A stretch of DNA of 21,762 nucleotides, from the UHGV virus genome UHGV-0262451; one strand, given 5' to 3'. Below are positions 1-17,874 of this stretch, piece by piece (positions within the stretch are counted from its first letter, which is position 1; each line of letters starts with the position of its first letter). The notes beneath the pieces were generated by a model that saw only the letters and a program-made list of their open reading frames with translations, was not told the DNA's origin and made no database searches. This stretch comes from a virus. The position numbers and the translations under genes were made by a program.

Positions 1-841
1 CTTCTCCCAAACCAAGGTATGCGAGAAGACCGGCAACATCCTTCCCACTCAAATGAGTCAGCGTCTCATCCAGTGGCTGCTTACCTGACAGCGCATTGTT
101 AATGGTGGTGCTGAATTTCGGGTCATTGTTAATGGCTGCGGCAATTTCTTTCAGTGTATCCAGCGTGGCAGGCGCACCGTTAATCAGAGCGGTGATAGCG
201 GCCTGTACAAACGCAGTGGTCGCAATCCGCGTGGTGTTATTTCCTGCGGCAGGCGTCGGCGCTTTTGGTTCTCCGGTAAATGTCGGATTATGTTTCTGTG
301 CATACTGGGTATGAGGATCCTGTGCGGCAATGTGGTTTCTCATCTGGTCATCCACATACAGCTTTAATTCCAGGACTTCATCATCCACGTATTTACGGGT
401 CGCCAGTACCACCGACGGGTCGATTTTCAGCGTGATGGCTTCGGTATTCGTGACAACCAGAATCATGCGGATAGTCTGGGTACGACCGCTGCCTTCCTGC
501 AACTGCGGTTTGTACGTTTCCGGGCAGTTCGCCACCGCAATGAGTACGCCTTCATCATCATAAAGCCCAATCTCACGGATCCAGAATCCGCCCTCGTTCT
601 CAGGGATGATTTGCTCCGCAATAATCTGACTCTGGTTGTTCGGGTCAACACTCAGAAGATTCAGCGGCGCGATGCGTTTCTGGTTAATCAGTTTTATCTG
701 TGCCGGGTCTGGTGTCGGCAAGACACCATTCGCATCACCAACGGCCATTTGCGTCAGATTCAGCTTACTGCCGAGCATCGTCGCGTTAGCCAGCCGTGCT
801 GCGCCCTGATTAGTCAGAATGGCGTAGTATTTCACTGTCAT
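1..841 (-). CDS. H: Tail fibre protein, N-terminal part (gene continues beyond the left edge of the window)
   Basis: Minus-strand reading frame open from ATG at 841-839 to the window edge; translation begins MTVKYYAILTNQGAARLANA...MAVGDANG...GGFWIREIGLYDDEGVLIAVAN, which resembles the conserved N-terminal domain of P2-family tail fibres. Start overlaps the stop of gene I (ATGA). Not in the supplied ORF track because no stop lies inside the window. Confidence 0.85.
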   Translation of the reverse strand, partial: MTVKYYAILTNQGAARLANATMLGSKLNLTQMAVGDANGVLPTPDPAQIKLINQKRIAPLNLLSVDPNNQSQIIAEQIIPENEGGFWIREIGLYDDEGVLIAVANCPETYKPQLQEGSGRTQTIRMILVVTNTEAITLKIDPSVVLATRKYVDDEVLELKLYVDDQMRNHIAAQDPHTQYAQKHNPTFTGEPKAPTPAAGNNTTRIATTAFVQAAITALINGAPATLDTLKEIAAAINNDPKFSTTINNALSGKQPLDETLTHLSGKDVAGLLAYLGLGE

Positions 842-1449
842 GCGTTTACTCTCAGGTTATCAATTAAATGAATGGCCGAGGCCGGGAAATAATCCCCTCC
901 GACAATAATGGCCTCCGGGGTGTAGGGATAAACCGTCAGGGCGTCACCGTGATAGCATCCCGCACCGGCAAAAATGTTGCCGGTTGTACTTAAACTGATA
1001 GCCAGTCCCGTCAGATGGCGGCTCGCCGGTTTTGCATCAGCAACGAGGCGCTCCAGCTCCTGATACATTTCCTCGGTAATACCCTGCTCAAGCACACCAA
1101 CAACGATGCGGAACGTCCCCGGCTCCTCATTGAGTTGCCACCACTCCCTCACCTCAATCAGATAGCCGAGCGGCTCCACCACACGGCGAATCGCACCAAT
1201 AGTGCCCTTATGGCAGTGAATGAAATACGCATCGCGGATAACAGCGCGTTTTGTCGCTTCCGGCCACTTATCATCCCAGCGGTCAACCGAAAATGACCAC
1301 GCCAGCCACGGCAGCAGATTTGCCGGGCAGGTGTCCGGGTTCCACAGCTCACGAATACTGACCGGCGTTTTTTCAATTTCCGCACAGGCTTTTGCGGCGG
1401 CAACTTCAAGCTGTGATGAGCCGGTCGGCAGCAGGCGCGAATCACTCAT
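838..1449 (-). CDS. I: Baseplate assembly protein gpI-like
   Basis: 203-aa ORF in the P2 position between J and H; start overlaps J stop, stop overlaps H start (operon coupling). Confidence 0.8.
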   Translation of the reverse strand: MSDSRLLPTGSSQLEVAAAKACAEIEKTPVSIRELWNPDTCPANLLPWLAWSFSVDRWDDKWPEATKRAVIRDAYFIHCHKGTIGAIRRVVEPLGYLIEVREWWQLNEEPGTFRIVVGVLEQGITEEMYQELERLVADAKPASRHLTGLAISLSTTGNIFAGAGCYHGDALTVYPYTPEAIIVGGDYFPASAIHLIDNLRVNA

Positions 1450-2350
1450 CCGAGCCTCCGGTCACGACGCGGTATTCGGTGCAGAAAGACGCCTGCGTAC
1501 TGTTGAGCACAATGTCGGCCAGTGGTGCGGCCAGCTCGACACGCTGCACGCCTTCCACATGCAAAGCGGCATAAATGGCAGACAGACGGATGTCGCGCCC
1601 CAGCCGGTGCTGTGCCGTGATGTACGCTTCCAGTTTTTTCACGGCAGCAGCGCGGATGGGTTCGCTTTCAGGACCAGGGTAAAGGTAAAGCGTGGCGTTT
1701 ATCTGGTATTCAACGATGGCGGCAGACTGCACGGTCACGCGGTCGGCCACCGGCCTGACGTCCTCACCATTAAGGGCGTTGCGCACCACCGCCAGCAGGT
1801 CTTCGGATGCGACACCGTTATTTTCACGTGACAGCACAGAGATGGTGACGCAGGCCGGAGACGGACTGGTGACAGAGATATCCGCGACACGCCCGTCGGC
1901 ACTGCGACCATGATACTGATAGGCTCCCACCGACCCGGCGACGCTTAAGCCCTCAAACGCCTGCTGAATACGCAGACGATAATCGGTGTCAGACTCCATC
2001 ACTGCCGGTGTCGGCGGGATGGTCGAATCATCTGCCGGGGTGATAGTCAGGCGCGTGGTGTTGTAATTGGCACCAATCACATCAAGGTCATTACCGGCAG
2101 CACAGGCCAGCATCACCGCCCGTGCGGCCTCATTCACACGCTGACGCCAGATAAGCTCACGATAAGCATTTTCCTCCAGCAGTTTGACGAGAGGCTCAGA
2201 TTCCAGCGTCAGGGTACGGGCGACCGCCTCCTGCTGGTCTTCCGGGTAAAGGGAAATCAGTGTCGCCTTGCGTTCGGCGAGAATGGTTTCAAAGTCCAGC
2301 TCCTCGACCACATCCGGTGCGGGTAGCTGGTTCAGGTCGATAATCGGCAT
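1442..2350 (-). CDS. J: Baseplate protein gpJ-like
   Basis: 302-aa ORF, same length as P2 gpJ, in the V-W-J-I-H order. Confidence 0.88.
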   Translation of the reverse strand: MPIIDLNQLPAPDVVEELDFETILAERKATLISLYPEDQQEAVARTLTLESEPLVKLLEENAYRELIWRQRVNEAARAVMLACAAGNDLDVIGANYNTTRLTITPADDSTIPPTPAVMESDTDYRLRIQQAFEGLSVAGSVGAYQYHGRSADGRVADISVTSPSPACVTISVLSRENNGVASEDLLAVVRNALNGEDVRPVADRVTVQSAAIVEYQINATLYLYPGPESEPIRAAAVKKLEAYITAQHRLGRDIRLSAIYAALHVEGVQRVELAAPLADIVLNSTQASFCTEYRVVTGGSDE

Positions 2351-2354
2351 GATT

Positions 2355-2702
2355 TCAACTCACAGGGATGGTTAACGAAAGTGGCTGGCCGGTGTCGTTG
2401 TGCTGGCCGGTTAACGTGACCGTCATTCGCCCGTCAAAACTGCGCTCAGTGGTGACAGATGACAGGGTGACGCGGGGTTCCCATTTCAGCACTGCCATGT
2501 AACAGGCGACCTTAATCTGCAACTCAAGCGCCGGGGTCTGCGGCTGGTCAATCATTGACGCCAGCAACGAGCCGTAATCACGACGCATCACCCGTGAACC
2601 GACCGGTGTGCGCAGGATATCGCCGATACTCTGGCTGATATGTTCAAGGTCAGTGACAGTCAGGCCATCACTGCGATTCATTCCGAGATAACGCGCTGTC
2701 AT
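2355..2702 (-). CDS. W: Baseplate wedge protein gpW-like (gp25/lysozyme-like fold family)
   Basis: 115-aa ORF, same length as P2 gpW; positioned between V and J; start overlaps V stop. Confidence 0.88.
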   Translation of the reverse strand: MTARYLGMNRSDGLTVTDLEHISQSIGDILRTPVGSRVMRRDYGSLLASMIDQPQTPALELQIKVACYMAVLKWEPRVTLSSVTTERSFDGRMTVTLTGQHNDTGQPLSLTIPVS

Positions 2703-3334
2703 AGAGGACTCCCGGTTGTGCCGCCGCTGTCGCCGGGGTGTTTATGGGTATGCAGTACCTTACCGTTTGATGAGAGTTCACCGCCGGTGTGTTCAATGTT
2801 GCCGCGCATCGTCCCGCCCTTCTGTACTTCCAACGTGCCGGTAATCAGCCTGTTGGTGCAGACCACCTCCGGTGTGTCCAGGGTGACGCGGGTTGATGCT
2901 TTCACCATGACCACCGGCACCGTGGCGGTAACAGAATCAGAAGCCGTCACGCTGGCCGTTTTAATTCCGCTTACCGTGAGTGCACTGGTTTCGGGTTCAT
3001 ACTCAATCACCGCCCCGTCAGGGAAACGGATATGCAGGGCATCCGCCGACGCAGACGGCGCGGGGTTATCGCCGGAATAAATCCCCGGCAGAACAAACGC
3101 CGTGTCAAGTTCACCGCCCACGGCCAGAATCAGCACCTGCTCCCCCACGGAAGGTGCCCACCATGTGCGCGAACGCCCGGCACGACAGGTCAGCCACTGA
3201 AGCCAGTCGGTGCACATGCCGCCGGTCTGCACACGGCAGCGACCGGCTTTAAGGTTGGTTTCGACGATAATGCCGGTGCGAATCATGTTGCGCAGTGCGC
3301 GCGCGAGTTCCTGGATATTTGCGAGAGTGTTCAT
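2699..3334 (-). CDS. V: Baseplate spike/hub protein gpV-like
   Basis: 211-aa ORF, same length as P2 gpV; first gene of the V-W-J-I-H late operon. Confidence 0.88.
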   Translation of the reverse strand: MNTLANIQELARALRNMIRTGIIVETNLKAGRCRVQTGGMCTDWLQWLTCRAGRSRTWWAPSVGEQVLILAVGGELDTAFVLPGIYSGDNPAPSASADALHIRFPDGAVIEYEPETSALTVSGIKTASVTASDSVTATVPVVMVKASTRVTLDTPEVVCTNRLITGTLEVQKGGTMRGNIEHTGGELSSNGKVLHTHKHPGDSGGTTGSPL

Positions 3335-9600: not shown

Positions 9601-9773
9601 TGTCAGGAGTCCTGAATAGTGATTAGAGGAGTCACATGTCGGCATCAGTTTCCCGACGATGCGCATCCTCCGCCATCAGTCCCGGATGGCTTATCACTGA
9701 CACAACAGCACCTTAGCGAATCGCGGGGCGCGACTCAGTAGCCTTGCCGTGTATTCATCACGGCGAGGTATTC
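9601..9773. promoter_or_regulatory. Divergent late-promoter region between gene O (minus) and gene P (plus)
   Basis: 173-bp non-coding gap between two divergently transcribed late operons, as in P2 where Ogr-activated promoters sit here. A partial dyad (TGTCGG-N10-CCGAC, about 9637-9656) is visible, but I could not find a clean TGT-N12-ACA match. Confidence 0.5.
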
Positions 9774-11546
9774 ATGACCATCACCACAGACACCACTCTT
9801 TTACACGACCCGCGTCGTCAGGCGGCGCTGCTGTACTGGCAGGGGTTTTCCGTGCCGCAGATTGCCGCCATGTTGCAGATGAAACGCCCGACGGTGCAGA
9901 GCTGGAAACAGCGCGACGGCTGGGACAGCGTTGCCCCCATCAGCCGTGTCGAAATGAGTCTGGAAGCGCGGCTGACCCAGCTCATCATCAAACCGCAGAA
10001 AACCGGCGGTGACTTCAAGGAAATTGACCTGCTCGGACGCCAGATTGAACGACTGGCACGGGTAAACCGTTACAGTCAGACCGGCAACGAGGCAGACCTT
10101 AATCCGAACGTCGCTAACCGCAACAAAGGCGGGCGGCGCAAACCGAAAAAGAATTTTTTCAGTGACGAGGCCATCGAAAAGCTGGAGCAGATTTTCTTTG
10201 AGCAGTCTTTCGACTATCAGTTGCACTGGTATCGCGCCGGGCTTGAGCACCGCATCCGCGATATCCTGAAATCCCGCCAGATTGGCGCAACGTTTTATTT
10301 TTCCCGCGAGGCGCTGCTGCGCGCCCTGAAAACCGGCCATAACCAGATTTTTCTGTCGGCCAGTAAAACGCAGGCGTATGTGTTCCGCGAATACATCATC
10401 GCCTTTGCCCGTCTGGTTGACGTTGACCTGACCGGTGACCCGATTGTCCTGGGCAATAACGGCGCAAAACTGATTTTTCTCGGCACCAACTCCAATACCG
10501 CGCAGAGCCATAACGGCGACCTGTACGTCGACGAGATTTTCTGGATCCCGAATTTTCAGGTACTGCGTAAGGTGGCATCAGGTATGGCCTCACAGAGCCA
10601 CCTGCGCTCGACCTATTTCTCCACCCCGTCCACGCTGGCGCACGACGCCTACCCATTCTGGTCGGGTGAACTGTTCAACCGGGGACGCGCCAGCGCCGCC
10701 GAACGCGTGGAAATCGACGTCAGTCATAACGCCCTTGCCGGAGGGCTTCTCTGTGCGGACGGCCAGTGGCGGCAGATTGTCACCATTGAGGACGCCCTGA
10801 AAGGCGGCTGCACGCTGTTCGACATTGAGCAGCTCAAACGCGAAAACAGCGCCGACGATTTTAAAAACCTGTTCATGTGTGAATTTGTTGACGACAAGGC
10901 GTCGGTGTTCCCGTTCGAGGAGCTGCAACGCTGCATGGTCGACACGCTGGAAGAATGGGAAGACTATGCACCGTTTGCCGCCAATCCGTTCGGCTCCCGC
11001 CCGGTATGGATTGGTTACGACCCGTCACACCGTGGCGACAGCGCCGGATGCGTGGTGCTGGCACCGCCGGTGGTGGCCGGTGGCAAATTCAGAATACTTG
11101 AGCGTCACCAGTGGAAAGGCATGGACTTTGCCACCCAGGCTGAATCCATCCGCAAACTCACCGAAAAATACAACGTCGAATACATCGGAATTGATGCCAC
11201 CGGCCTCGGTGTCGGCGTGTTCCAGCTCGTGCGCTCGTTCTATCCCGCCGCGCGCGACATCCGCTACACACCGGAAATGAAAACCGCAATGGTGCTCAAG
11301 GCAAAAGACGTTATCCGCCGTGGCTGTCTGGAATATGACGTCAGCGCCACCGACATCACCAGCTCGTTTATGGCTATTCGCAAGACCATGACCAGCAGCG
11401 GACGCAGCGCCACCTATGAGGCCAGCCGCAGCGAGGAAGCCAGCCACGCCGATCTCGCCTGGGCGACCATGCACGCCCTGTTAAATGAGCCACTCACCGC
11501 CGGTATCAGCACCCCGCTGACATCCACCATTCTGGAGTTTTACTGA
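9774..11546 (+). CDS. P: Terminase large (ATPase) subunit gpP-like
   Basis: 590 aa from MTITTDTTLLHDPRRQAALLYWQGFSVPQIAAMLQ... (P2 gpP size and recalled N-terminus); GAGG SD upstream of the ATG at 9774. The track ORF starts 10 codons earlier at 9744. Confidence 0.9.
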   Translation: MTITTDTTLLHDPRRQAALLYWQGFSVPQIAAMLQMKRPTVQSWKQRDGWDSVAPISRVEMSLEARLTQLIIKPQKTGGDFKEIDLLGRQIERLARVNRYSQTGNEADLNPNVANRNKGGRRKPKKNFFSDEAIEKLEQIFFEQSFDYQLHWYRAGLEHRIRDILKSRQIGATFYFSREALLRALKTGHNQIFLSASKTQAYVFREYIIAFARLVDVDLTGDPIVLGNNGAKLIFLGTNSNTAQSHNGDLYVDEIFWIPNFQVLRKVASGMASQSHLRSTYFSTPSTLAHDAYPFWSGELFNRGRASAAERVEIDVSHNALAGGLLCADGQWRQIVTIEDALKGGCTLFDIEQLKRENSADDFKNLFMCEFVDDKASVFPFEELQRCMVDTLEEWEDYAPFAANPFGSRPVWIGYDPSHRGDSAGCVVLAPPVVAGGKFRILERHQWKGMDFATQAESIRKLTEKYNVEYIGIDATGLGVGVFQLVRSFYPAARDIRYTPEMKTAMVLKAKDVIRRGCLEYDVSATDITSSFMAIRKTMTSSGRSATYEASRSEEASHADLAWATMHALLNEPLTAGISTPLTSTILEFY

Positions 11547-12580
11547 TGAGTAAGAAAAAAGGGAAAACACCGCAACCTGCGGCAAAAAAAATGACCGCCA
11601 GCGCCCCGAAAATGGAGGCATTCACCTTTGGTGAGCCGGTGCCGGTACTCGACCGCCGTGACATTCTGGATTACGTCGAGTGCATCAGTAACGGCAGATG
11701 GTATGAGCCGCCGGTCAGCTTTACCGGTCTGGCGAAAAGCCTGCGTGCTGCCGTGCATCACAGCTCGCCGATTTACGTCAAACGCAATATTCTGGCCTCG
11801 ACATTTATCCCGCACCCGTGGCTTTCCCAGCAGGATTTCAGCCGCTTTGTGCTGGATTTTCTGGTGTTCGGTAATGCGTTTCTGGAAAAGCGTTACAGTA
11901 CCACCGGTAAGGTCATCAGACTGGAAACCTCACCGGCAAAATATACCCGCCGTGGCGTGGAGGAGGATGTTTACTGGTGGGTGCCGTCCTTCAACGAGCC
12001 GACAGCCTTCGCGCCCGGCTCCGTGTTTCACCTGCTGGAGCCGGATATCAATCAGGAACTGTACGGCCTGCCGGAATATCTCAGCGCCCTTAACTCTGCC
12101 TGGCTGAATGAGTCGGCCACGCTGTTCCGCCGCAAGTATTACGAAAACGGCGCTCATGCCGGATACATCATGTATGTCACCGATGCCGTGCAGGATCGCA
12201 ACGATATCGAAATGCTTCGCGAAAACATGGTTAAGTCGAAAGGCCGCAACAACTTTAAAAACCTGTTTCTCTATGCCCCACAGGGGAAAGCCGACGGCAT
12301 TAAAATTATCCCCCTCAGTGAAGTGGCGACGAAGGACGATTTTTTTAATATCAAAAAAGTCAGCGCCGCAGATCTCCTGGACGCACACCGCATCCCCTTT
12401 CAGTTGATGGGCGGTAAGCCGGAGAATGTCGGGTCACTGGGAGATATTGAGAAAGTGGCAAAGGTCTTTGTCCGCAATGAGCTTATCCCGTTACAGGACA
12501 GGATCCGCGAGATAAACGGCTGGCTCGGTCAGGAGGTCATCCGCTTTAAAAACTACTCACTGGACACTGACAACGGCTGA
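11546..12580 (+). CDS. Q: Portal protein gpQ-like
   Basis: 344-aa ORF (P2 gpQ size); start overlaps the P stop (TGATG); last gene before cos, as in P2. Confidence 0.9.
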   Translation: MSKKKGKTPQPAAKKMTASAPKMEAFTFGEPVPVLDRRDILDYVECISNGRWYEPPVSFTGLAKSLRAAVHHSSPIYVKRNILASTFIPHPWLSQQDFSRFVLDFLVFGNAFLEKRYSTTGKVIRLETSPAKYTRRGVEEDVYWWVPSFNEPTAFAPGSVFHLLEPDINQELYGLPEYLSALNSAWLNESATLFRRKYYENGAHAGYIMYVTDAVQDRNDIEMLRENMVKSKGRNNFKNLFLYAPQGKADGIKIIPLSEVATKDDFFNIKKVSAADLLDAHRIPFQLMGGKPENVGSLGDIEKVAKVFVRNELIPLQDRIREINGWLGQEVIRFKNYSLDTDNG

Positions 12581-12585
12581 ACATC

Positions 12586-12607
12586 GCCGCCTGCGGGCGG
12601 CTTTTTT
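12586..12607 (+). terminator. Rho-independent terminator of the P-Q operon
   Basis: GCCGCC-tgcg-GGCGGC hairpin (12586-12601) followed directly by TTTTTT (12602-12607), 6 nt after the Q stop codon. Confidence 0.75.
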
Positions 12608-12749
12608 ACACCCCGTCATCACGCCCTCACACACTCACCACCGCACAAAACAGCCCGCAGACACACCAACGCCCCGGTGCACAATCTAAACGCCATCAAG
12701 ACGCGCTCAGACGCTGAAAAAATAAAATCAGCACCACCGCCAGCGCGCA

Positions 12750-12768
12750 GTGCTTTCCCCGCCTCGCC
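12750..12768. other. cos site (cohesive-end sequence) of the P2-like genome
   Basis: GTGCTTTCCCCGCCTCGCC, the reverse complement of the 19-nt P2 cohesive end as I recall it (GGCGAGGCGGGGAAAGCAC), located just past Q where P2 cos lies. Confidence 0.7.
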
Positions 12769-13040
12769 TGCCCGCTTTATAGGTCGGGTTTAATGCAGTT
12801 GCGTGACCATTTTGGATCCGCGCCAGCTCTGGCCGCTCACGGCCAGAGCGTGCAAGGCTGACTCATGCAAAACCATGCACCTTATGCATTCATGGTTAAA
12901 TAACGATAACTCTGACTCAAATTATTGGTTTGTGTTGGTTTTATTTTGGTTAAGAGATGCGCATTGCACCAATAATACTGGATAGCAGCTTAATAATCAG
13001 CGCTGTTAACAACAGGATATTTGAAGTCATTACCATGGTA

Positions 13041-13070
13041 TTGACCAAGTTACTAAATCTCGGTGTTAAT
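13041..13070 (+). promoter_or_regulatory. Candidate sigma70-type promoter upstream of the cargo ORF
   Basis: TTGACC (13041-13046), 18 bp spacer, GTTAAT (13065-13070) in an AT-rich leader about 150 bp upstream of the ORF. Weak -10; position is speculative. Confidence 0.25.
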
Positions 13071-13221
13071 CAGGGATTGTCAGCGTCATATGTAACATCT
13101 CACGATATCCACATCAACAGCCTGTAGTTTGGCGGCTGATGGCACTTTGGGAGGCTTTCACTTTCACTCTATCTAATGTTACTATCGCGCCCATTACTAG
13201 GAAAATTACTTAATCATAACA

Positions 13222-14844
13222 ATGGGTAGTGATATGCAAATTCAAAGAGGCGTAATTTGGCATACATACACAACACAATCGCCAGAATATCAAGATGCCG
13301 AGAAATTTAGTTCAGACTTGATAAATACAGGGTTGTTTCTTGCAATACTAACGCCACACAACACATTCAAATATTTATCAAAAAACACACCATCCTCAAC
13401 AAAAATAAGCATGAGATATGAAAACAACGAAAATGCTGTTACTGTTGAGGGCGGTGATAAGATTCATGCGTCAGGTGTTTGCGCCCTAACTGCTACGGCT
13501 TTTTCCCAGTGTATAAACATTAGACTCTCTGAAAGAAAGCTTTTTCACACACCAGGTAATAATTATTACGAAAACATAATATGTTGTCAAAAGCCAATCC
13601 TAGTAAAAAATAACGATGTGGAATTTTTTATTCATCCAATTATTCGTCTCTATAAAAATGGGATAGCACATGTTACCTTTGTTGACACTGAGGAACGCAA
13701 TGTTGATTTGAATGATTTCATAAAAAACATTTTAAACCTACCTTTAAAACTAAACAGTTCGATTACTACCAGCATAGAGTTCGCCAAGAGTTCGTTACTG
13801 CTAGACTATTCAGGAATGCCACTACTTAGTAGACTGATAGCGAAGTGTAGTATTAAAAAGAGTTTAAAACTATTGAACGACAACTCTGAAGATCTAGAGG
13901 TTGGTGAATTTAAGGTTACAGGTAGATATATTGATTACACAAATTTAATGCAAATTCAGCATAATTTAAGTGACATCGCCAGATATGTGATTGCTATAAT
14001 ATTTGACAAAACAAAAAAAAGAACAATTAAAGATTATCTTTTAGGCAGAAATCTTTCTGAGTTTTATAACTTCTGGCAAGGTAAGCCAAGCGTCTATATC
14101 TTCGAGCACGATAATCAAAAAAACAATGCCACTGACAATTTTCAGAGTAATAAGTCGTTAGTTTATTCATTGCTGGGCAAAAATCACCTATTAACAAACA
14201 TAAAGCACACCAAGAAAATCATTGATCATCGTGCCTTTGATGATTTCAATTTTTTTTCTGAACAGTCTTTAGCACTGACTATACTTACATGTAAAGTTAA
14301 AAAAGAATTTTTTACCGGGACATATACAGAAGAAAATCTGATGTGGGACAATCAGGTTAAGAGTGATCTTAGAGATTTCATTTCCTTTTCATATGATTCA
14401 ACAATAGAAAAAATTGAAAATGAAAAAAGCCATCTTGGCCTTGCCAAAATACAAGAAGACATCCTTTTATTTGAAGAGTGGCTTAGGATTTTCTCAAGGA
14501 AGTATGGAGAGATACAAGACTTCACATTTAATACATTAAATTCAATCGATATAAAAAGGGCTCGTCAAAGCGTCATTGAATTGATAAAGTCAAGAATCCA
14601 AGTGCTAAAATTAATTGATGCCGACTTAAATGACAAAAGTAATAAGAAGATAACAATGGCCTTTGGTTTAATTGCATCGACATCATTATCCCCAATTTTA
14701 GTAAAGCCATTATTTGAAACACTAAACCTGTCACTTTTAATTAAGAAATCTGGACTCAAAAGCTATGAAGATGCAATTTACTTTGCCACATCCATGGTTT
14801 TGGTTTGGTTAATAATAAAGCTATTAAACTTCAGGAGAAAATAG
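13222..14844 (+). CDS. Hypothetical protein, 540 aa, AT-rich cargo gene in the cos-to-A variable locus; no recognisable catalytic motif; predicted C-terminal membrane hairpin
   Basis: Single long ORF in otherwise ORF-poor AT-rich DNA; codon usage dominated by AAA/AAT/ATT/TTA. Two hydrophobic stretches at the C-terminus (ITMAFGLIASTSLSPILV and AIYFATSMVLVWLIIKLL, then FRRK). Start may be the second ATG at 13234 (weak GGGTAG-like SD). Function is inferred from location only. Confidence 0.7.
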   Translation: MGSDMQIQRGVIWHTYTTQSPEYQDAEKFSSDLINTGLFLAILTPHNTFKYLSKNTPSSTKISMRYENNENAVTVEGGDKIHASGVCALTATAFSQCINIRLSERKLFHTPGNNYYENIICCQKPILVKNNDVEFFIHPIIRLYKNGIAHVTFVDTEERNVDLNDFIKNILNLPLKLNSSITTSIEFAKSSLLLDYSGMPLLSRLIAKCSIKKSLKLLNDNSEDLEVGEFKVTGRYIDYTNLMQIQHNLSDIARYVIAIIFDKTKKRTIKDYLLGRNLSEFYNFWQGKPSVYIFEHDNQKNNATDNFQSNKSLVYSLLGKNHLLTNIKHTKKIIDHRAFDDFNFFSEQSLALTILTCKVKKEFFTGTYTEENLMWDNQVKSDLRDFISFSYDSTIEKIENEKSHLGLAKIQEDILLFEEWLRIFSRKYGEIQDFTFNTLNSIDIKRARQSVIELIKSRIQVLKLIDADLNDKSNKKITMAFGLIASTSLSPILVKPLFETLNLSLLIKKSGLKSYEDAIYFATSMVLVWLIIKLLNFRRK

Positions 14845-14997: not shown

Positions 14998-15234
14998 CTA
15001 TGGTCGACGTGGCGGCAGTATTATCGGACCTCTCGCCGGTGTGAAGGCCTCAACTTTCTGATTGCTTATATCATGCAGCCGCCCGTAATTATCCCTGACG
15101 ATTTCAGCACACCCGACCAGTTCGGCGGGTGTCAGATTCTCATTGACCATTATTTGTTGCAGTCGATGCACAATACCCATCAGTTTTATGCTGTTGTTCT
15201 TATGCTGCGGAATTTCACGGTGTAGTCTGTGCAT
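14998..15234 (-). CDS. Hypothetical small protein (78 aa), translationally coupled to the upstream 101-aa ORF
   Basis: ATG at 15234-15232 directly follows the TAA of the 101-aa ORF; strong SD (GAAGGTGGAGA) 8 nt upstream. The opposite-strand 92-aa ORF (14947-15225) lacks such signals. Confidence 0.55.
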   Translation of the reverse strand: MHRLHREIPQHKNNSIKLMGIVHRLQQIMVNENLTPAELVGCAEIVRDNYGRLHDISNQKVEAFTPARGPIILPPRRP

Positions 15235-15540
15235 TTACCAGTCTCCACCTTCAACGTGTAACTTGTCTGAAATGAGCGCCGCTAACTCATGATTTGCTGA
15301 TGAATTTCTTCCGCTATGCGTATCCCCCAGAACCAACGCGAAGCCATCGCCACCCACCGTGTAATACTTAGCTTCCGGGAAGTGTTCCCGCACCTCCTGA
15401 CGCAGCTTTTCTAGCGCGGTAGAAAGACGATAAAATCGAGATGCCGCAGTCGGCATAACATCAGATAGCAAGTCACGCGCCGTGGTAATGCCTTCGCTAT
15501 CTTTAATAACTTGTTTTATTTCTTCGGTGTACATGGTCAT
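15235..15540 (-). CDS. Hypothetical protein (101 aa) immediately downstream of A; positional equivalent of P2 orf91
   Basis: ATG directly follows the TGA of gene A (TGAATG) with GGAG about 9 nt upstream. Sequence not recognised. Confidence 0.7.
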   Translation of the reverse strand: MTMYTEEIKQVIKDSEGITTARDLLSDVMPTAASRFYRLSTALEKLRQEVREHFPEAKYYTVGGDGFALVLGDTHSGRNSSANHELAALISDKLHVEGGDW

Positions 15541-17874
15541 TCAATCAATCTCCATTATTGAAACATTGGAATATCCCGGCCACTCATCAGCGACCGCATA
15601 ACTGAATTTTTTCTCGCCATATGTCACCGTTGCGCCCCGCGCCAGTACATCCAGTTCCCACCGCTCCGGCGTGATACCGTGTTGTGCTAGGTCAAACCGG
15701 ATGCGTGATATCTGGTCACGCTGCGATTTAGTCAGTCGCGCTGAAGGTGCTAATTCATCCGGCTTCAACGGTGATCGGTTTCTTTGTTGCCTGTTTTGAG
15801 GTTTAGCCCCTGCTTTTAGCGCGCCCCTGAGCACCTTCACGGCGTCCGGGTCATTCCAGTCGATCACCCCAGCATCAATGAGATTTATCACCGCTGCGGC
15901 TTGCTCAGACGGTGTGGGCGTCATATCCGTGTCGCTTCCGTTGGCCGGTAACCCACAGTTATTGACAGGACTCCGAGGCGCGGCGATGCCGCTTTTTAAA
16001 GTCAAAGGCTCAACGACCGGCACTTTCGTAACAATGCGCCAGTCCGTCGTTCTGGTGATATGAATATGACGCGCGCCGAGATGCGGCGCGTAAATGCCGA
16101 CCACTCTCTCGACTTCTTCCTCGTACTCGTTAACTTCATCCGACGGACTACGGGCGACCCTGACAGTCTGACAATCGCGCGGGACATTTGCCCCACCCTG
16201 CGCGCTGATATACAACGCAAAATCACCACTGTCTGCGGCGGCGCGTGCAGCCTCGACGCGCTCGTCAAACTCATCAGCAATGCTGACGCCGCGCGGCAAT
16301 TTGCGTAGTTCACGGTAAGCCCCCATTGTCGGCAGGCCAACCGTTTTAAATTGCGGGATGCGCCACGTTGACGCCCATGCGGTAACAGCCGCTGCAGTGT
16401 CTTTCAGCGGCCTGCCGGTGTCGTTATCGAGCTGACCATCCAGTGCATAGCCGTCGATGTTTTTTGAAATGTATTTCGCGATATATCCCGCAGCACCGCC
16501 CCGGTTAAGGTGTTTTGCCTGAAAACGGTTTCGCGCGGCTCCTCTTTCGTCGCCATCCTCTTTGAGCGCATAGCGACGCATGATTTCGATAATCTGGTTA
16601 CGCTGGCGTGAATTACAAAAAAGCATCATATGCCAGTGCGGCGTTCCGTCGTGGTGTGGCTCGACGACACGCAAACCGTAGACCTGTAAATCATTATCCT
16701 TGAATGCCGTGCGCATCAGGCTCCAGATACGGCAGAGATAACGCTGCGCATCCTTTGGATTAAATGCCTCATCGTTCCAGCCGTGATTAAGCTGCACGGT
16801 TTTACTTTCGCCTTTTCCTACCTGACGTGTCGGGTGATACTTTGACGGCGCGGTCAGCGTGATAAACATCCCCACATCACCCTCTGCAGCGGCGTAACGC
16901 TCAATACCGGCAATGGTGTTCATCAGCTCCATCCGGCGAATTTCAGGATTAGAAATACTGCCCATCACCTTACTGATAAGGTCGATGCGCTCGCCGGTTT
17001 CCCTGTTTTCAAGGTCACACGATTTAAGAAATTCCAGATTTGCCTGGCGGCGCGCACGCACATCACGAATGGCGTGTTTACTGGCATAAGGAGAACGGTC
17101 TTTATTGACCTCCCCGACAGCTATCAGTAACGCTTCATGCCAGCGCATACGCTGGCCTTTAAGCTGACTAATCCACCACTCATCGTTAAACAGGCGGGCA
17201 ATGGCAGAATATGCCTGCCTCGTTGTCATCTGTCCTTTACGGTATTTTTTCCAGTAGAGCGGGGAAATATTGAAAGCACGTGCAGCGCCAGCAACATGAC
17301 CATACAGATGCGCCTGCGCCTCATCCGTAAACAGCGATTCTTTTTCACCATGCGCATCAACCCATGCATCGCAGAGTTCCTCATACATCATGAAAAGCTG
17401 CGATGAGATACGGGCGGCAAACTTTTTCAGCTCCTTGTCATTCATTCCAGGCAGGCGCGCATAGTGGTCACGCTCTGCCAGAAACAGCAACGACGCGTCG
17501 GTGTTCATTTCATGGCGCTGATTAACGCGCTCAATGCGCGGCCATAAACGACGCTGAAAAGTGGATGTGAGGAAATAAAACCCGTGCACCGGGCTTTTAT
17601 TGCGCCGGATGTAGTCATAGCGTGAAGTAAACAGCGAGCGCAAAAAGTAAGGCAGGCGATTAATCGTGGATAAAACACCTTGCACCTGACGCATCTCGTC
17701 ACGTGTAAGGGGTCTTTCGCGCCCGACAGCCTCGCGTGGCGCGTTCCATGCATAAGCACCGGTAAACGTCTTACCGGTGCCTGCGGCAAATGCTGACGGA
17801 GGGACAAAACGCCCGAAGGCTTTAACGGCCATATGAGCCAAAAGCCTCTGAACAACGCTTGCTGAGTTGCTCAA
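15541..17874 (-). CDS. A: Replication initiation protein gpA-like (HUH-type rolling-circle nickase)
   Basis: 777-aa ORF; internal MAVKAFGRFVPPSAFAAGTGKTFTG... matches my recollection of the P2 A N-terminus, so the true start may be 17832 (763 aa). Contains a HUH-like motif (TPHWHMMLF). Confidence 0.9.
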   Translation of the reverse strand: MSNSASVVQRLLAHMAVKAFGRFVPPSAFAAGTGKTFTGAYAWNAPREAVGRERPLTRDEMRQVQGVLSTINRLPYFLRSLFTSRYDYIRRNKSPVHGFYFLTSTFQRRLWPRIERVNQRHEMNTDASLLFLAERDHYARLPGMNDKELKKFAARISSQLFMMYEELCDAWVDAHGEKESLFTDEAQAHLYGHVAGAARAFNISPLYWKKYRKGQMTTRQAYSAIARLFNDEWWISQLKGQRMRWHEALLIAVGEVNKDRSPYASKHAIRDVRARRQANLEFLKSCDLENRETGERIDLISKVMGSISNPEIRRMELMNTIAGIERYAAAEGDVGMFITLTAPSKYHPTRQVGKGESKTVQLNHGWNDEAFNPKDAQRYLCRIWSLMRTAFKDNDLQVYGLRVVEPHHDGTPHWHMMLFCNSRQRNQIIEIMRRYALKEDGDERGAARNRFQAKHLNRGGAAGYIAKYISKNIDGYALDGQLDNDTGRPLKDTAAAVTAWASTWRIPQFKTVGLPTMGAYRELRKLPRGVSIADEFDERVEAARAAADSGDFALYISAQGGANVPRDCQTVRVARSPSDEVNEYEEEVERVVGIYAPHLGARHIHITRTTDWRIVTKVPVVEPLTLKSGIAAPRSPVNNCGLPANGSDTDMTPTPSEQAAAVINLIDAGVIDWNDPDAVKVLRGALKAGAKPQNRQQRNRSPLKPDELAPSARLTKSQRDQISRIRFDLAQHGITPERWELDVLARGATVTYGEKKFSYAVADEWPGYSNVSIMEID

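What the first reader, a model, noticed from the sequence alone, without database searches (positions are those of the whole stretch)
14650..14841. Predicted C-terminal transmembrane hairpin on the cargo protein
The last 64 residues contain two hydrophobic stretches (ITMAFGLIASTSLSPILV and AIYFATSMVLVWLIIKLL) separated by a short polar linker and followed by FRRK, while the first ~475 residues are hydrophilic. A large cytoplasmic sensor domain with a short C-terminal membrane anchor is a layout seen in several abortive-infection effectors that kill by membrane disruption. This is a testable mechanistic hypothesis, not an established one.
Basis: inference. Interest (0 to 1): 0.5.

Follow-up and report, generated by a model that had tools for sequence, protein, structure and literature searches.

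The report
Membrane-hairpin protein in P2 defence hotspot
A single, unannotated 540-residue gene in the anti-phage hotspot of a P2-like prophage ends in a conserved two-helix membrane hairpin, and belongs to a widespread uncharacterised family found next to known defence systems, so it is a good but untested candidate for a one-protein sensor-and-membrane-killer immune system.

Summary
Bases 14650-14841 encode the quoted 64 residues. The two hydrophobic segments are the only ones in the protein, and 120 distant homologues keep them.

The flanks before helix 1 and after helix 2 are rich in Lys/Arg and the loop is neutral. This fits an N-in/C-in hairpin.

The gene is the only cargo between portal gpQ and replication gene gpA of a P2-like prophage. 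That locus is the published cos-proximal defence hotspot. Its GC is about 32-36%, against about 55% in the flanks.

Relatives sit in the same P2 slot in Klebsiella, Pantoea and E. coli. More distant ones lie beside CBASS, Lamassu, DUF4238 and toxin-antitoxin genes.

Helix 1 is among the most conserved stretches of the protein and continues directly from a 35-residue stalk helix. It therefore looks functional, not just an anchor.

The overall layout resembles CorA, but membership of the CorA family failed every test I could run.

Defence activity and membrane killing have not been tested.

The parts
13222..14844 (+). Cargo ORF, 540 aa. The probable true start is Met5 at 13234, giving 536 aa. 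It is a stand-alone gene of an uncharacterised family.
   Evidence: ORF list. PHROG 24946, unknown function, matched full length. No Pfam, NCBIfam or PADLOC hit. RefSeq CDS in E. coli 1217KP starts at the Met5 equivalent. GC 0.32-0.36 against about 0.55 in the flanks.
13222..14325 (+). N-terminal alpha/beta region (residues 1-368), presumed cytoplasmic. It carries family-wide conserved P139, G147, W285, P289, Q299, R337, D341 and L352.
14326..14544 (+). Helical region (residues 369-441; helices 370-400, 404-425 and 429-439) with conserved G429 and E430.
14545..14649 (+). Charged stalk (residues 442-476). It is the first part of one continuous predicted helix, 442-500, that runs into membrane helix 1.
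   Evidence: Model helix H442-500. Mean hydrophobicity -0.25. The 15 residues before helix 1 carry 0.22 K+R per residue across the family.
14650..14715 (+). Membrane helix 1 (residues 477-498, ITMAFGLIASTSLSPILVKPLF). Family motif: L-T-x-x-F-G-L-x-A-x-x-x-L-A-x-x-V-x-x-P-x-W.
   Evidence: KD and Wimley-White peaks. Hydrophobic moment 0.02, so it is not amphipathic. T478, F481, G482, A485, S488, S490, P491 and P496 are invariant in the close clade. G482 is kept in 115/120 and P496 in 112/120 of the family. 2nd and 5th most conserved window.
14716..14772 (+). Loop between the helices (residues 499-517), with a short helix at 503-509. Presumed periplasmic.
   Evidence: Family median length 19 residues. 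K+R 0.10 and D+E 0.10 per residue, so net neutral. Lowest conservation of the C-terminal region.
14773..14829 (+). Membrane helix 2 (residues 518-536, AIYFATSMVLVWLIIKLLN). The sequence varies but it is always hydrophobic, and position 524 is a small residue.
   Evidence: KD >= 1.6 in 120/120 relatives, median 2.47. Position 524 is S, A or T in 112/120.
14830..14844 (+). Basic C-terminal tail FRRK plus the stop codon. Presumed cytoplasmic.
   Evidence: Family tails have median length 10, with 0.33 K+R and 0.03 D+E per residue.
11546..12580 (+). Portal protein gpQ, the left border of the P2 hotspot.
   Evidence: Pfam Phage_portal, E 3.7e-14. RefSeq 'phage portal protein' in the near-identical locus.
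12581..13221 (.). Non-coding cos-proximal spacer. The first ~310 bases are conserved in P2-like phages, then GC falls.
   Evidence: Megablast: only bases 1-313 of the query (window 12581-12893) match P2-family phage records. No annotated gene here in E. coli 1217KP. Terminator-like hairpin after gpQ at 12586-12601.
15541..17874 (-). Replication gene gpA, the right border of the hotspot.
   Evidence: Pfam Phage_GPA, E 4e-123.

Best explanation
The gene encodes a stand-alone, prophage-carried candidate anti-phage protein. A cytoplasmic N-terminal alpha/beta plus helical-bundle region (about 440 residues) connects through a long rigid stalk helix to a C-terminal N-in/C-in transmembrane hairpin in the inner membrane.

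Proposed mechanism (inferred, not shown):
1. The cytoplasmic part detects an infection cue.
2. The change passes along the stalk helix, which is continuous with membrane helix 1.
3. The conserved hairpin helices of several protomers rearrange or assemble into an ion-conducting pore.
4. The membrane potential collapses and the infection is aborted before competing phage is released, which protects the lysogen population and the P2-like prophage.

Shown here by computation: the hairpin and its conservation, the charge distribution that gives the topology, the continuity of stalk and helix, the hotspot location, and the association with defence islands.

Inferred: the sensor role, oligomerisation, pore formation and the abortive outcome.
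For: Hairpin:
- Hydropathy peaks occur only at 477-498 and 518-536. The family-mean profile peaks at the same two places, 1.72 and 2.35.
- The segments are kept in 95-120 of 120 distant homologues.
- K+R is enriched before helix 1 and after helix 2, and the loop is neutral.

Functional rather than passive:
- Helix 1 ranks 2nd and 5th of 519 windows for conservation.
- G482 and P496 are >= 90% conserved family-wide.
- Positions 485 and 524 are small residues.
- The model has one continuous helix 442-500, at pLDDT 94.7 and pTM 0.90.

Defence context:
- It is the sole gene between gpQ and gpA. Rousset et al. 2022 (PMC9122126) define this locus as a defence hotspot.
- GC is 0.32-0.36 against 0.55 in the flanks.
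- The gene is in 1 of 5426 complete E. coli genomes and in none of 50,697 phage records, which is typical of swapped cargo.
- Relatives occupy the same slot in Pantoea, Klebsiella and E. coli P2-like prophages.
- Distant relatives lie beside type III CBASS, Lamassu, PIN + DUF4238, an AAA_15/21 ATPase + HicA and TA modules, or within an ICE.
- No partner gene is conserved across these loci, so it acts as a single-gene unit.

Prior: 6 of 8 randomly chosen unknown-function hotspot loci in P4 satellites protected against phage. 19% of P2-like phages carry only unknown genes at this locus (PMC13586616).
Against: - No experiment exists for any family member.
- No PADLOC model matches.
- The accessions I could test do not appear in the DefensePredictor or Vassallo supplements.
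- In this particular protein helix 1 is only marginally hydrophobic: KD 1.46, and a simple Hessa-scale sum of +5.3 kcal/mol.
- No dedicated TM predictor or multimer model could be run, and I could not inspect the model coordinates. Packing of the hairpin against the soluble part cannot be excluded.
- Nothing identifies the N-terminal region as a sensor. Its conserved polar residues (Q299, R337, D341, E430) could equally form a catalytic site.
- Conserved small residues in helix 1 could serve hairpin packing alone.
Confidence: 0.45

Rival explanations
1. Membrane-anchored defence or exclusion protein. The hairpin only tethers the protein to the inner membrane, and the cytoplasmic domain does the work. 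It might block DNA entry or injection (superinfection exclusion), or act as an enzyme on a phage or host target at the membrane. No pore forms.
For: The hotspot and defence-island context is the same as for the best explanation. The N-terminal part carries conserved polar residues Q299, R337, D341 and E430 that could be catalytic or ligand-binding. Helix 2 varies in sequence, like a plain anchor. P2 hotspots also carry SieB-type exclusion genes (Table S5A of PMC9122126).
Against: Helix 1 is one of the most conserved stretches of the protein, with near-invariant G and P. That is unusual for a passive anchor. No enzyme or Sie family is detected by Pfam in 82 members or by the PDB profile search.
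Confidence: 0.25
2. Accessory 'moron' gene that is not an immune system. It would be a membrane protein giving the lysogen some other benefit, such as ion or small-molecule transport, stress tolerance or envelope modification. Alternatively it could be a selfish toxin-like element.
For: The CorA-like layout (cytosolic domain, stalk, two C-terminal TMs, basic tail) is that of a transporter. The Serratia copy survives beside a decayed portal fragment among housekeeping genes. Some distant copies have only weak mobile-element neighbours.
Against: The gene sits consistently in a locus dedicated to defence cargo and beside CBASS, Lamassu, DUF4238 and TA genes in unrelated phyla. It has a patchy, rare distribution: 1 and 12 of 5426 E. 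coli genomes for the two paralogues. It has no CorA signature.
Confidence: 0.15
3. The hydrophobic helices are not membrane-embedded at rest. They are buried in a soluble monomer or oligomer, as in colicin or Bcl-2-type and ClyA-type pore formers, and insert only after activation. Alternatively they never insert.
Against: Most relatives have a strongly hydrophobic helix 2 (median KD 2.47, up to 3.4) and a positive-inside charge pattern typical of constitutive insertion. Helix 1 has no amphipathic moment (0.02).
Confidence: 0.1

Closest known systems
CorA / ZntB / Mrs2 divalent-cation channels (Pfam PF01544)
Membrane effectors of signalling-based immunity (CBASS 2TM/Cap14/Cap15, Pycsar PycTM, type II Thoeris TM effector, type III CRISPR CorA, Cam1, Csx23, Csx28, Hailong HalA)
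   Same: A cytoplasmic sensing domain is coupled to TM helices that are believed or shown to depolarise the membrane and abort infection. This rests on my own knowledge and on the abstracts listed.
   Different: Those effectors are second components, activated by a nucleotide made by a partner enzyme. This protein has no conserved partner gene. It has no SAVED, CARF, TIR or Macro domain and no PADLOC match.
Lambda RexAB and other classical membrane Abi/exclusion proteins (RexB, PifA, SieB)
   Same: They are prophage-encoded, protect the lysogen against other phages and act at the inner membrane.
   Different: RexB is a small 4-TM protein that needs RexA. No sequence relation was found by Pfam or PADLOC. 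This protein is a single large polypeptide with a C-terminal hairpin.
Other cargo of the P2 gpA-gpQ hotspot (old, tin; the TIR + 2TM + 1TM system of phage AC1; DUF4238; retrons and others) described by Rousset et al. 2022
   Same: The genomic slot next to cos is identical, the GC is low, and occupancy is rare and swapped. A 50%-identical paralogue (WP_001165947) is already listed there as a one-gene 'hypothetical' locus.
   Different: The protein family is unrelated to the other cargo. It is not among the systems cloned and tested in that study, since the accession occurs only in the catalogue table.

Membership tests
CorA/MIT superfamily (PF01544) | Sequence match to the CorA profile | tested here: not met
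   No PF01544 hit for the window protein at E <= 1 or for 82 family members at E <= 0.01. hhalign of the 120-sequence profile against E. coli CorA gives probability 0.3%.
CorA/MIT superfamily (PF01544) | G-M-N motif at the outer end of TM1 | tested here: not met
   G[MVI]N occurs in the last 110 residues of only 3 of 120 members. The conserved outer-end motif is P-x-W instead.
CorA/MIT superfamily (PF01544) | Cytoplasmic domain, then a long stalk helix continuous with TM1, then TM2 and a basic tail at the extreme C-terminus | tested here: met
   Model helix 442-500 and helix 513-539. Charge distribution.
CorA/MIT superfamily (PF01544) | Fold of the cytoplasmic domain | tested here: inconclusive
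CorA/MIT superfamily (PF01544) | Homopentameric funnel with a TM1-lined pore | not testable with these tools
   No multimer prediction or coordinate access was available.
P2-like phage gpA-gpQ defence-hotspot cargo (Rousset et al. 2022) | Located between portal gpQ and replication gene gpA, next to cos | tested here: met
   Phage_portal at 11546-12580 and Phage_GPA at 15541-17874. Hotspot definition in PMC9122126. The layout is the same in the annotated E. coli 1217KP prophage.
P2-like phage gpA-gpQ defence-hotspot cargo (Rousset et al. 2022) | Variable, horizontally swapped insert with atypical composition | tested here: met
   GC 0.32-0.36 against about 0.55. Absent from 50,697 phage records, although the flanks match 101 of them. 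Present in 1 of 5426 E. coli genomes.
P2-like phage gpA-gpQ defence-hotspot cargo (Rousset et al. 2022) | Demonstrated protection against phage | not testable with these tools
   No experimental record was found. The accessions are absent from the full text of the library and from the tested-system tables.
Known or candidate defence systems in PADLOC-DB v2.0.0 | Match to any of 5027 defence-protein models | tested here: not met
   0 hits for the window protein at E <= 1. Among 82 relatives, one chance-level hit (PDC-M18B, E 0.006). The database dates from 2023, so later-named systems are not covered.
Abortive-infection membrane effectors (functional class) | Transmembrane helices | tested here: met
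   Hydropathy, conservation and the positive-inside pattern. No dedicated TM predictor was available.
Abortive-infection membrane effectors (functional class) | Infection-triggered membrane permeabilisation with death or arrest of the infected cell | not testable with these tools
   This needs wet-lab assays.

The most novel reading that the evidence does not exclude
This is the founding member of a new, phylogenetically widespread single-protein immune system. The family has at least 228 clusters at 50% identity, from Enterobacterales to Geobacter, cyanobacteria, Acidobacteriota and Gemmatimonadota. One polypeptide with a previously undescribed cytoplasmic fold would sense infection and gate its own CorA-like, stalk-coupled two-helix membrane pore. 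It would be a self-contained sensor-channel that reached the CorA architecture by convergence.
Probability: 0.3. Interest if true: 0.7.

Novelty: new variant of a known kind. Interest (0 to 1): 0.5.

Why it matters
If the hypothesis holds, a one-gene sensor-plus-pore system would add a compact new effector design to bacterial immunity. It would explain one of the recurrent 'hypothetical' occupants of the P2 hotspot. About 19% of P2-like phages carry only unknown genes there (PMC13586616). It would also give function to an unannotated family present in many phyla.

The clear split between a conserved helix 1 (F-G ... P-x-W) and a variable helix 2, together with the rigid stalk, gives immediate and cheap mutational tests of how a cytoplasmic signal is passed to a membrane pore.

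If the hypothesis fails, the result still marks a well-defined family of unknown function with a confident structural model.

Tried and rejected
Family and profile searches that found nothing useful:
- Pfam, NCBIfam and PADLOC scans of the protein gave only chance-level hits (CNDH2_N, 'sunset').
- Pfam and PADLOC scans of 82 relatives, and Pfam scans of 10 longer relatives that might have carried fused domains, were uninformative.
- A profile search of all PDB sequences returned only designed helical repeats at E > 0.5.

Fold searches that found nothing useful:
- Foldseek against BFVD viral structures gave nothing at E <= 0.001.
- The AlphaFold-DB library was not available.

CorA homology was rejected on three grounds: hhalign 0.3%, no GMN motif and no PF01544 hit.

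Locus and literature searches:
- The search for related loci in species-representative genomes failed. The broad alignment was too diverse and the close alignment gave no confirmed locus.
- Accession searches in the paper library and in the DefensePredictor and Vassallo supplements gave no mention.
- The supplements of the 2026 NAR P2/P4 paper are not held.
- Brenes & Laub 2025 is not in the library. I therefore cannot exclude that the family was tested there.

The promoter and terminator scan around the gene was no better than shuffles for promoters.

I ran no further search on building a CorA profile, because three independent tests were already negative.

Full report
**1. Observation**

The ORF at 13222-14844 (+) encodes 540 residues.

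All Kyte-Doolittle 19-residue windows above 1.2 lie at 476-539, with peaks of 1.46 for segment 1 and 1.86 for segment 2. Wimley-White octanol sums are favourable for both, at about -4.3 and -11.3 kcal/mol. Only 6 of 5000 composition-preserving shuffles give an equally hydrophobic pair within the last 64 residues.

Two details need correcting. The linker is 23 residues of mixed character with a short predicted helix, not a short polar linker. Segment 1 of this particular protein is below the classical 1.6 threshold. The likely start codon is Met5 (13234), where most homologues and the RefSeq annotation begin.

**2. The hairpin is a conserved family feature**

A word-indexed search found only 24 clusters, all Enterobacterales and all 'hypothetical'. 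A profile search of 1.84 billion representative proteins found 228 clusters at E <= 0.001 and 140 at E <= 1e-10. Almost all are 510-570 residues and match end to end. Named members come from Geobacter, Cellvibrio, Cyanobium, Syntrophus, Desulfomonilaceae, Terriglobia and Longimicrobium.

In a 120-sequence alignment (mean column identity 23%; most members about 15-25% identical to the query) the family-mean hydropathy profile has just two peaks, at 476-494 (1.72) and 518-536 (2.35). Segment 2 reaches KD >= 1.6 in 120/120 members. Segment 1 reaches that in 95/120 and >= 1.4 in 112/120.

Charge distribution across the family:

| Region | K+R per residue | D+E per residue |
|---|---|---|
| 15 residues before segment 1 | 0.22 | 0.13 |
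| Loop (median 19 residues) | 0.10 | 0.10 |
| C-terminal tail | 0.33 | 0.03 |

This is the positive-inside pattern expected for an N-in/C-in hairpin on a protein with no N-terminal signal-like segment. Segment 1 has essentially no amphipathic moment (0.02), so it is not a surface helix.

**3. Helix 1 is more than an anchor**

Only twelve positions are >= 90% conserved across the broad family. Two of them, G482 and P496, lie in or at the end of helix 1. In the close clade T478, F481, G482, A485, S488, S490, P491 and P496 are invariant.

Window 477-498 is the 2nd most conserved of 519 windows of 22 residues in the close clade and the 5th in the broad family. Helix 2 is below average in identity. 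Position 485 is A, G or S in 111/120 members and position 524 is S, A or T in 112/120. W498 is kept in 73/120, as expected for a residue at the membrane interface.

With the 120-sequence alignment AlphaFold2 gives a confident model (mean pLDDT 94.7, pTM 0.90). In it a single helix runs from 442 to 500, so a charged 35-residue stalk continues straight into helix 1. A short helix at 503-509 and helix 513-539 follow. I could not inspect the coordinates or predict multimers.

**4. Genomic setting**

The window is a P2-like (Peduovirus) prophage. It contains a large terminase at 9744-11546, portal gpQ at 11546-12580 and replication gene gpA at 15541-17874 on the opposite strand.

The cargo gene is the only sizeable ORF between gpQ and gpA. 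The only other ORFs there are two small conserved hypothetical genes next to gpA. This is the cos-proximal locus that Rousset et al. 2022 showed to be a hotspot of anti-phage systems, and it holds old and tin in P2 itself (PMC9122126).

GC falls from about 0.55 to 0.32-0.36 across the insert. Among 50,697 phage records, 101 match the flanking ~310 bases and none matches the gene. The gene occurs in 1 of 5426 complete E. coli genomes.

Relatives occupy the same slot as the sole cargo gene:
- Pantoea, 36% identity.
- Klebsiella, 51% identity.
- An E. coli paralogue at 50% identity, WP_001165947, present in 12 of 5426 genomes.

That paralogue is listed at least 7 times in Table S5A of Rousset et al. 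as a one-gene 'hypothetical' P2 locus. Its accession occurs in no other supplementary file, so it was apparently not among the cloned systems. The Serratia copy sits beside a portal-gene fragment in a decayed prophage.

**5. Distant relatives**

Their neighbourhoods are typical of defence islands and mobile elements:

| Neighbourhood |
|---|
| Adjacent to a type III CBASS operon (Cap4-SAVED, SMODS, HORMA, AAA) plus an HTH-M78/DUF3368 pair |
| Near Lamassu (LmuB_C) and conflict-system domains |
| Between a PIN_12/PIN_8 protein and a DUF4238 protein, with TA pairs nearby |
| Next to an AAA_15/AAA_21/DUF3696 ATPase, an RNA ligase and HicA |
| Among ParE/Phd, PIN and antitoxin genes |
| Inside an ICE-like element |
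| Among transposases |

In one MAG lineage the same chromosomal site beside the suf operon holds the gene alone in one genome and the gene plus further defence-like genes in another.

No neighbouring gene is conserved across these loci, so the functional unit is the single protein.

**6. What it is not**

- Pfam, NCBIfam and PADLOC give nothing for the protein.
- Pfam and PADLOC scans of 82 relatives, and a Pfam scan of 10 longer relatives, give nothing.
- The only library hit is PHROG 24946, of unknown function.
- A profile search of all PDB sequences is empty.
- BFVD viral structures give nothing.

**7. Comparison with CorA**

**8. Mechanism and rivals**

Best-supported reading (confidence about 0.45): a single-protein abortive-infection-type system. 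The cytoplasmic region detects infection, and through the stalk drives the conserved hairpin into or within an oligomeric pore that depolarises the cell.

Rivals:
- Membrane-tethered protein whose cytoplasmic domain is the effector or blocks phage DNA entry (0.25).
- Non-immune accessory membrane protein or transporter (0.15).
- Hairpin that is buried until activation, or never inserts (0.1).

The defence assignment rests on guilt by association. The prior is that most tested unknown hotspot loci are defensive: 6 of 8 randomly chosen unknown-function loci in P4 satellites protected (PMC13586616). The pore assignment rests on the conservation pattern and on analogy.

**9. Novelty and score**

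The kind of system, a hotspot-borne defence candidate with a membrane effector, is known. The protein family, its fold and the single-polypeptide sensor-stalk-hairpin design are undescribed in every resource I could query. PADLOC dates from 2023 and one relevant 2025 paper is not in the library. I rate it a new variant of a known kind, with interest 0.5.

Noticed in passing
window 13222-13236: The longest ORF starts at ATG 13222 (MGSDMQI...). 19 of 22 close homologues and the RefSeq CDS in E. coli 1217KP begin at the Met5 equivalent (13234). The real protein is therefore probably 536 aa.
   Followed up: partly
L012:3001-4614 / L013:3001-4614 (E. coli O157:H16 98-3133, WP_001165947): A 50%-identical paralogue occupies the same gpQ-gpA slot in other E. 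coli P2-like prophages (12 of 5426 complete genomes, one copy on a plasmid). In strain 98-3133 the neighbouring terminase gene is a truncated pseudogene. The paralogue is catalogued as a lone 'hypothetical' locus in Rousset et al. 2022 Table S5A.
   Followed up: partly
L001-L003:8521-11620 (Serratia): The Serratia homologue (46% identity) lies next to a 220-aa portal fragment, between chaABC-type housekeeping genes and a PhoH-like gene. This looks like a decayed P2-like prophage in which the cargo gene has been kept intact.
   Followed up: no
window 14998-15234 (-) and 15235-15540 (-): Two small back-to-back ORFs (78 and 101 aa) lie between the cargo gene and gpA. RefSeq annotates them as conserved hypothetical proteins (WP_000554921, WP_000180113). 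They have no Pfam family. Other P2-like loci have DinI and small unknown genes in this position.
   Followed up: partly
window 12586-12601 (+): A GC-rich hairpin followed by a T-run lies directly after the portal stop codon. It is a likely intrinsic terminator of the gpQ-gpP operon. The conserved P2-family sequence ends about 310 bases after gpQ, where GC starts to fall.
   Followed up: no
window protein residues 139, 147, 285-299, 335-341, 429-430 (about 13636-14511): The cytoplasmic part has a small set of family-wide conserved residues (P139, G147, W285, P289, Q299, R337, D341, L352, G429, E430). The pattern is W-x-G-[KR]-P ... Q, D-x-R-x-[FY]-D-D and G-E-I. It could be a ligand-binding or catalytic site, and no known motif matches.
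   Followed up: no
L008:7384-12463 versus L018:7478-9830: In two related metagenome-assembled genomes the site between the suf operon regulator (Rrf2) and a peptidase-like gene holds the family member alone in one genome. In the other it holds the member plus an AAA_15/AAA_21/DUF3696 ATPase, an RNA ligase and HicA. This looks like a chromosomal variable defence hotspot.
   Followed up: no
L016:932-9647 and L017:932-9647: A soil-metagenome relative sits immediately downstream of an HTH-Peptidase_M78 / DUF3368 gene pair and a complete type III CBASS operon (Cap4-SAVED, SMODS, HORMA, Cap8, AAA). The start of the family gene is only 20 bases after DUF3368, so co-transcription is possible in that lineage.
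   Followed up: no
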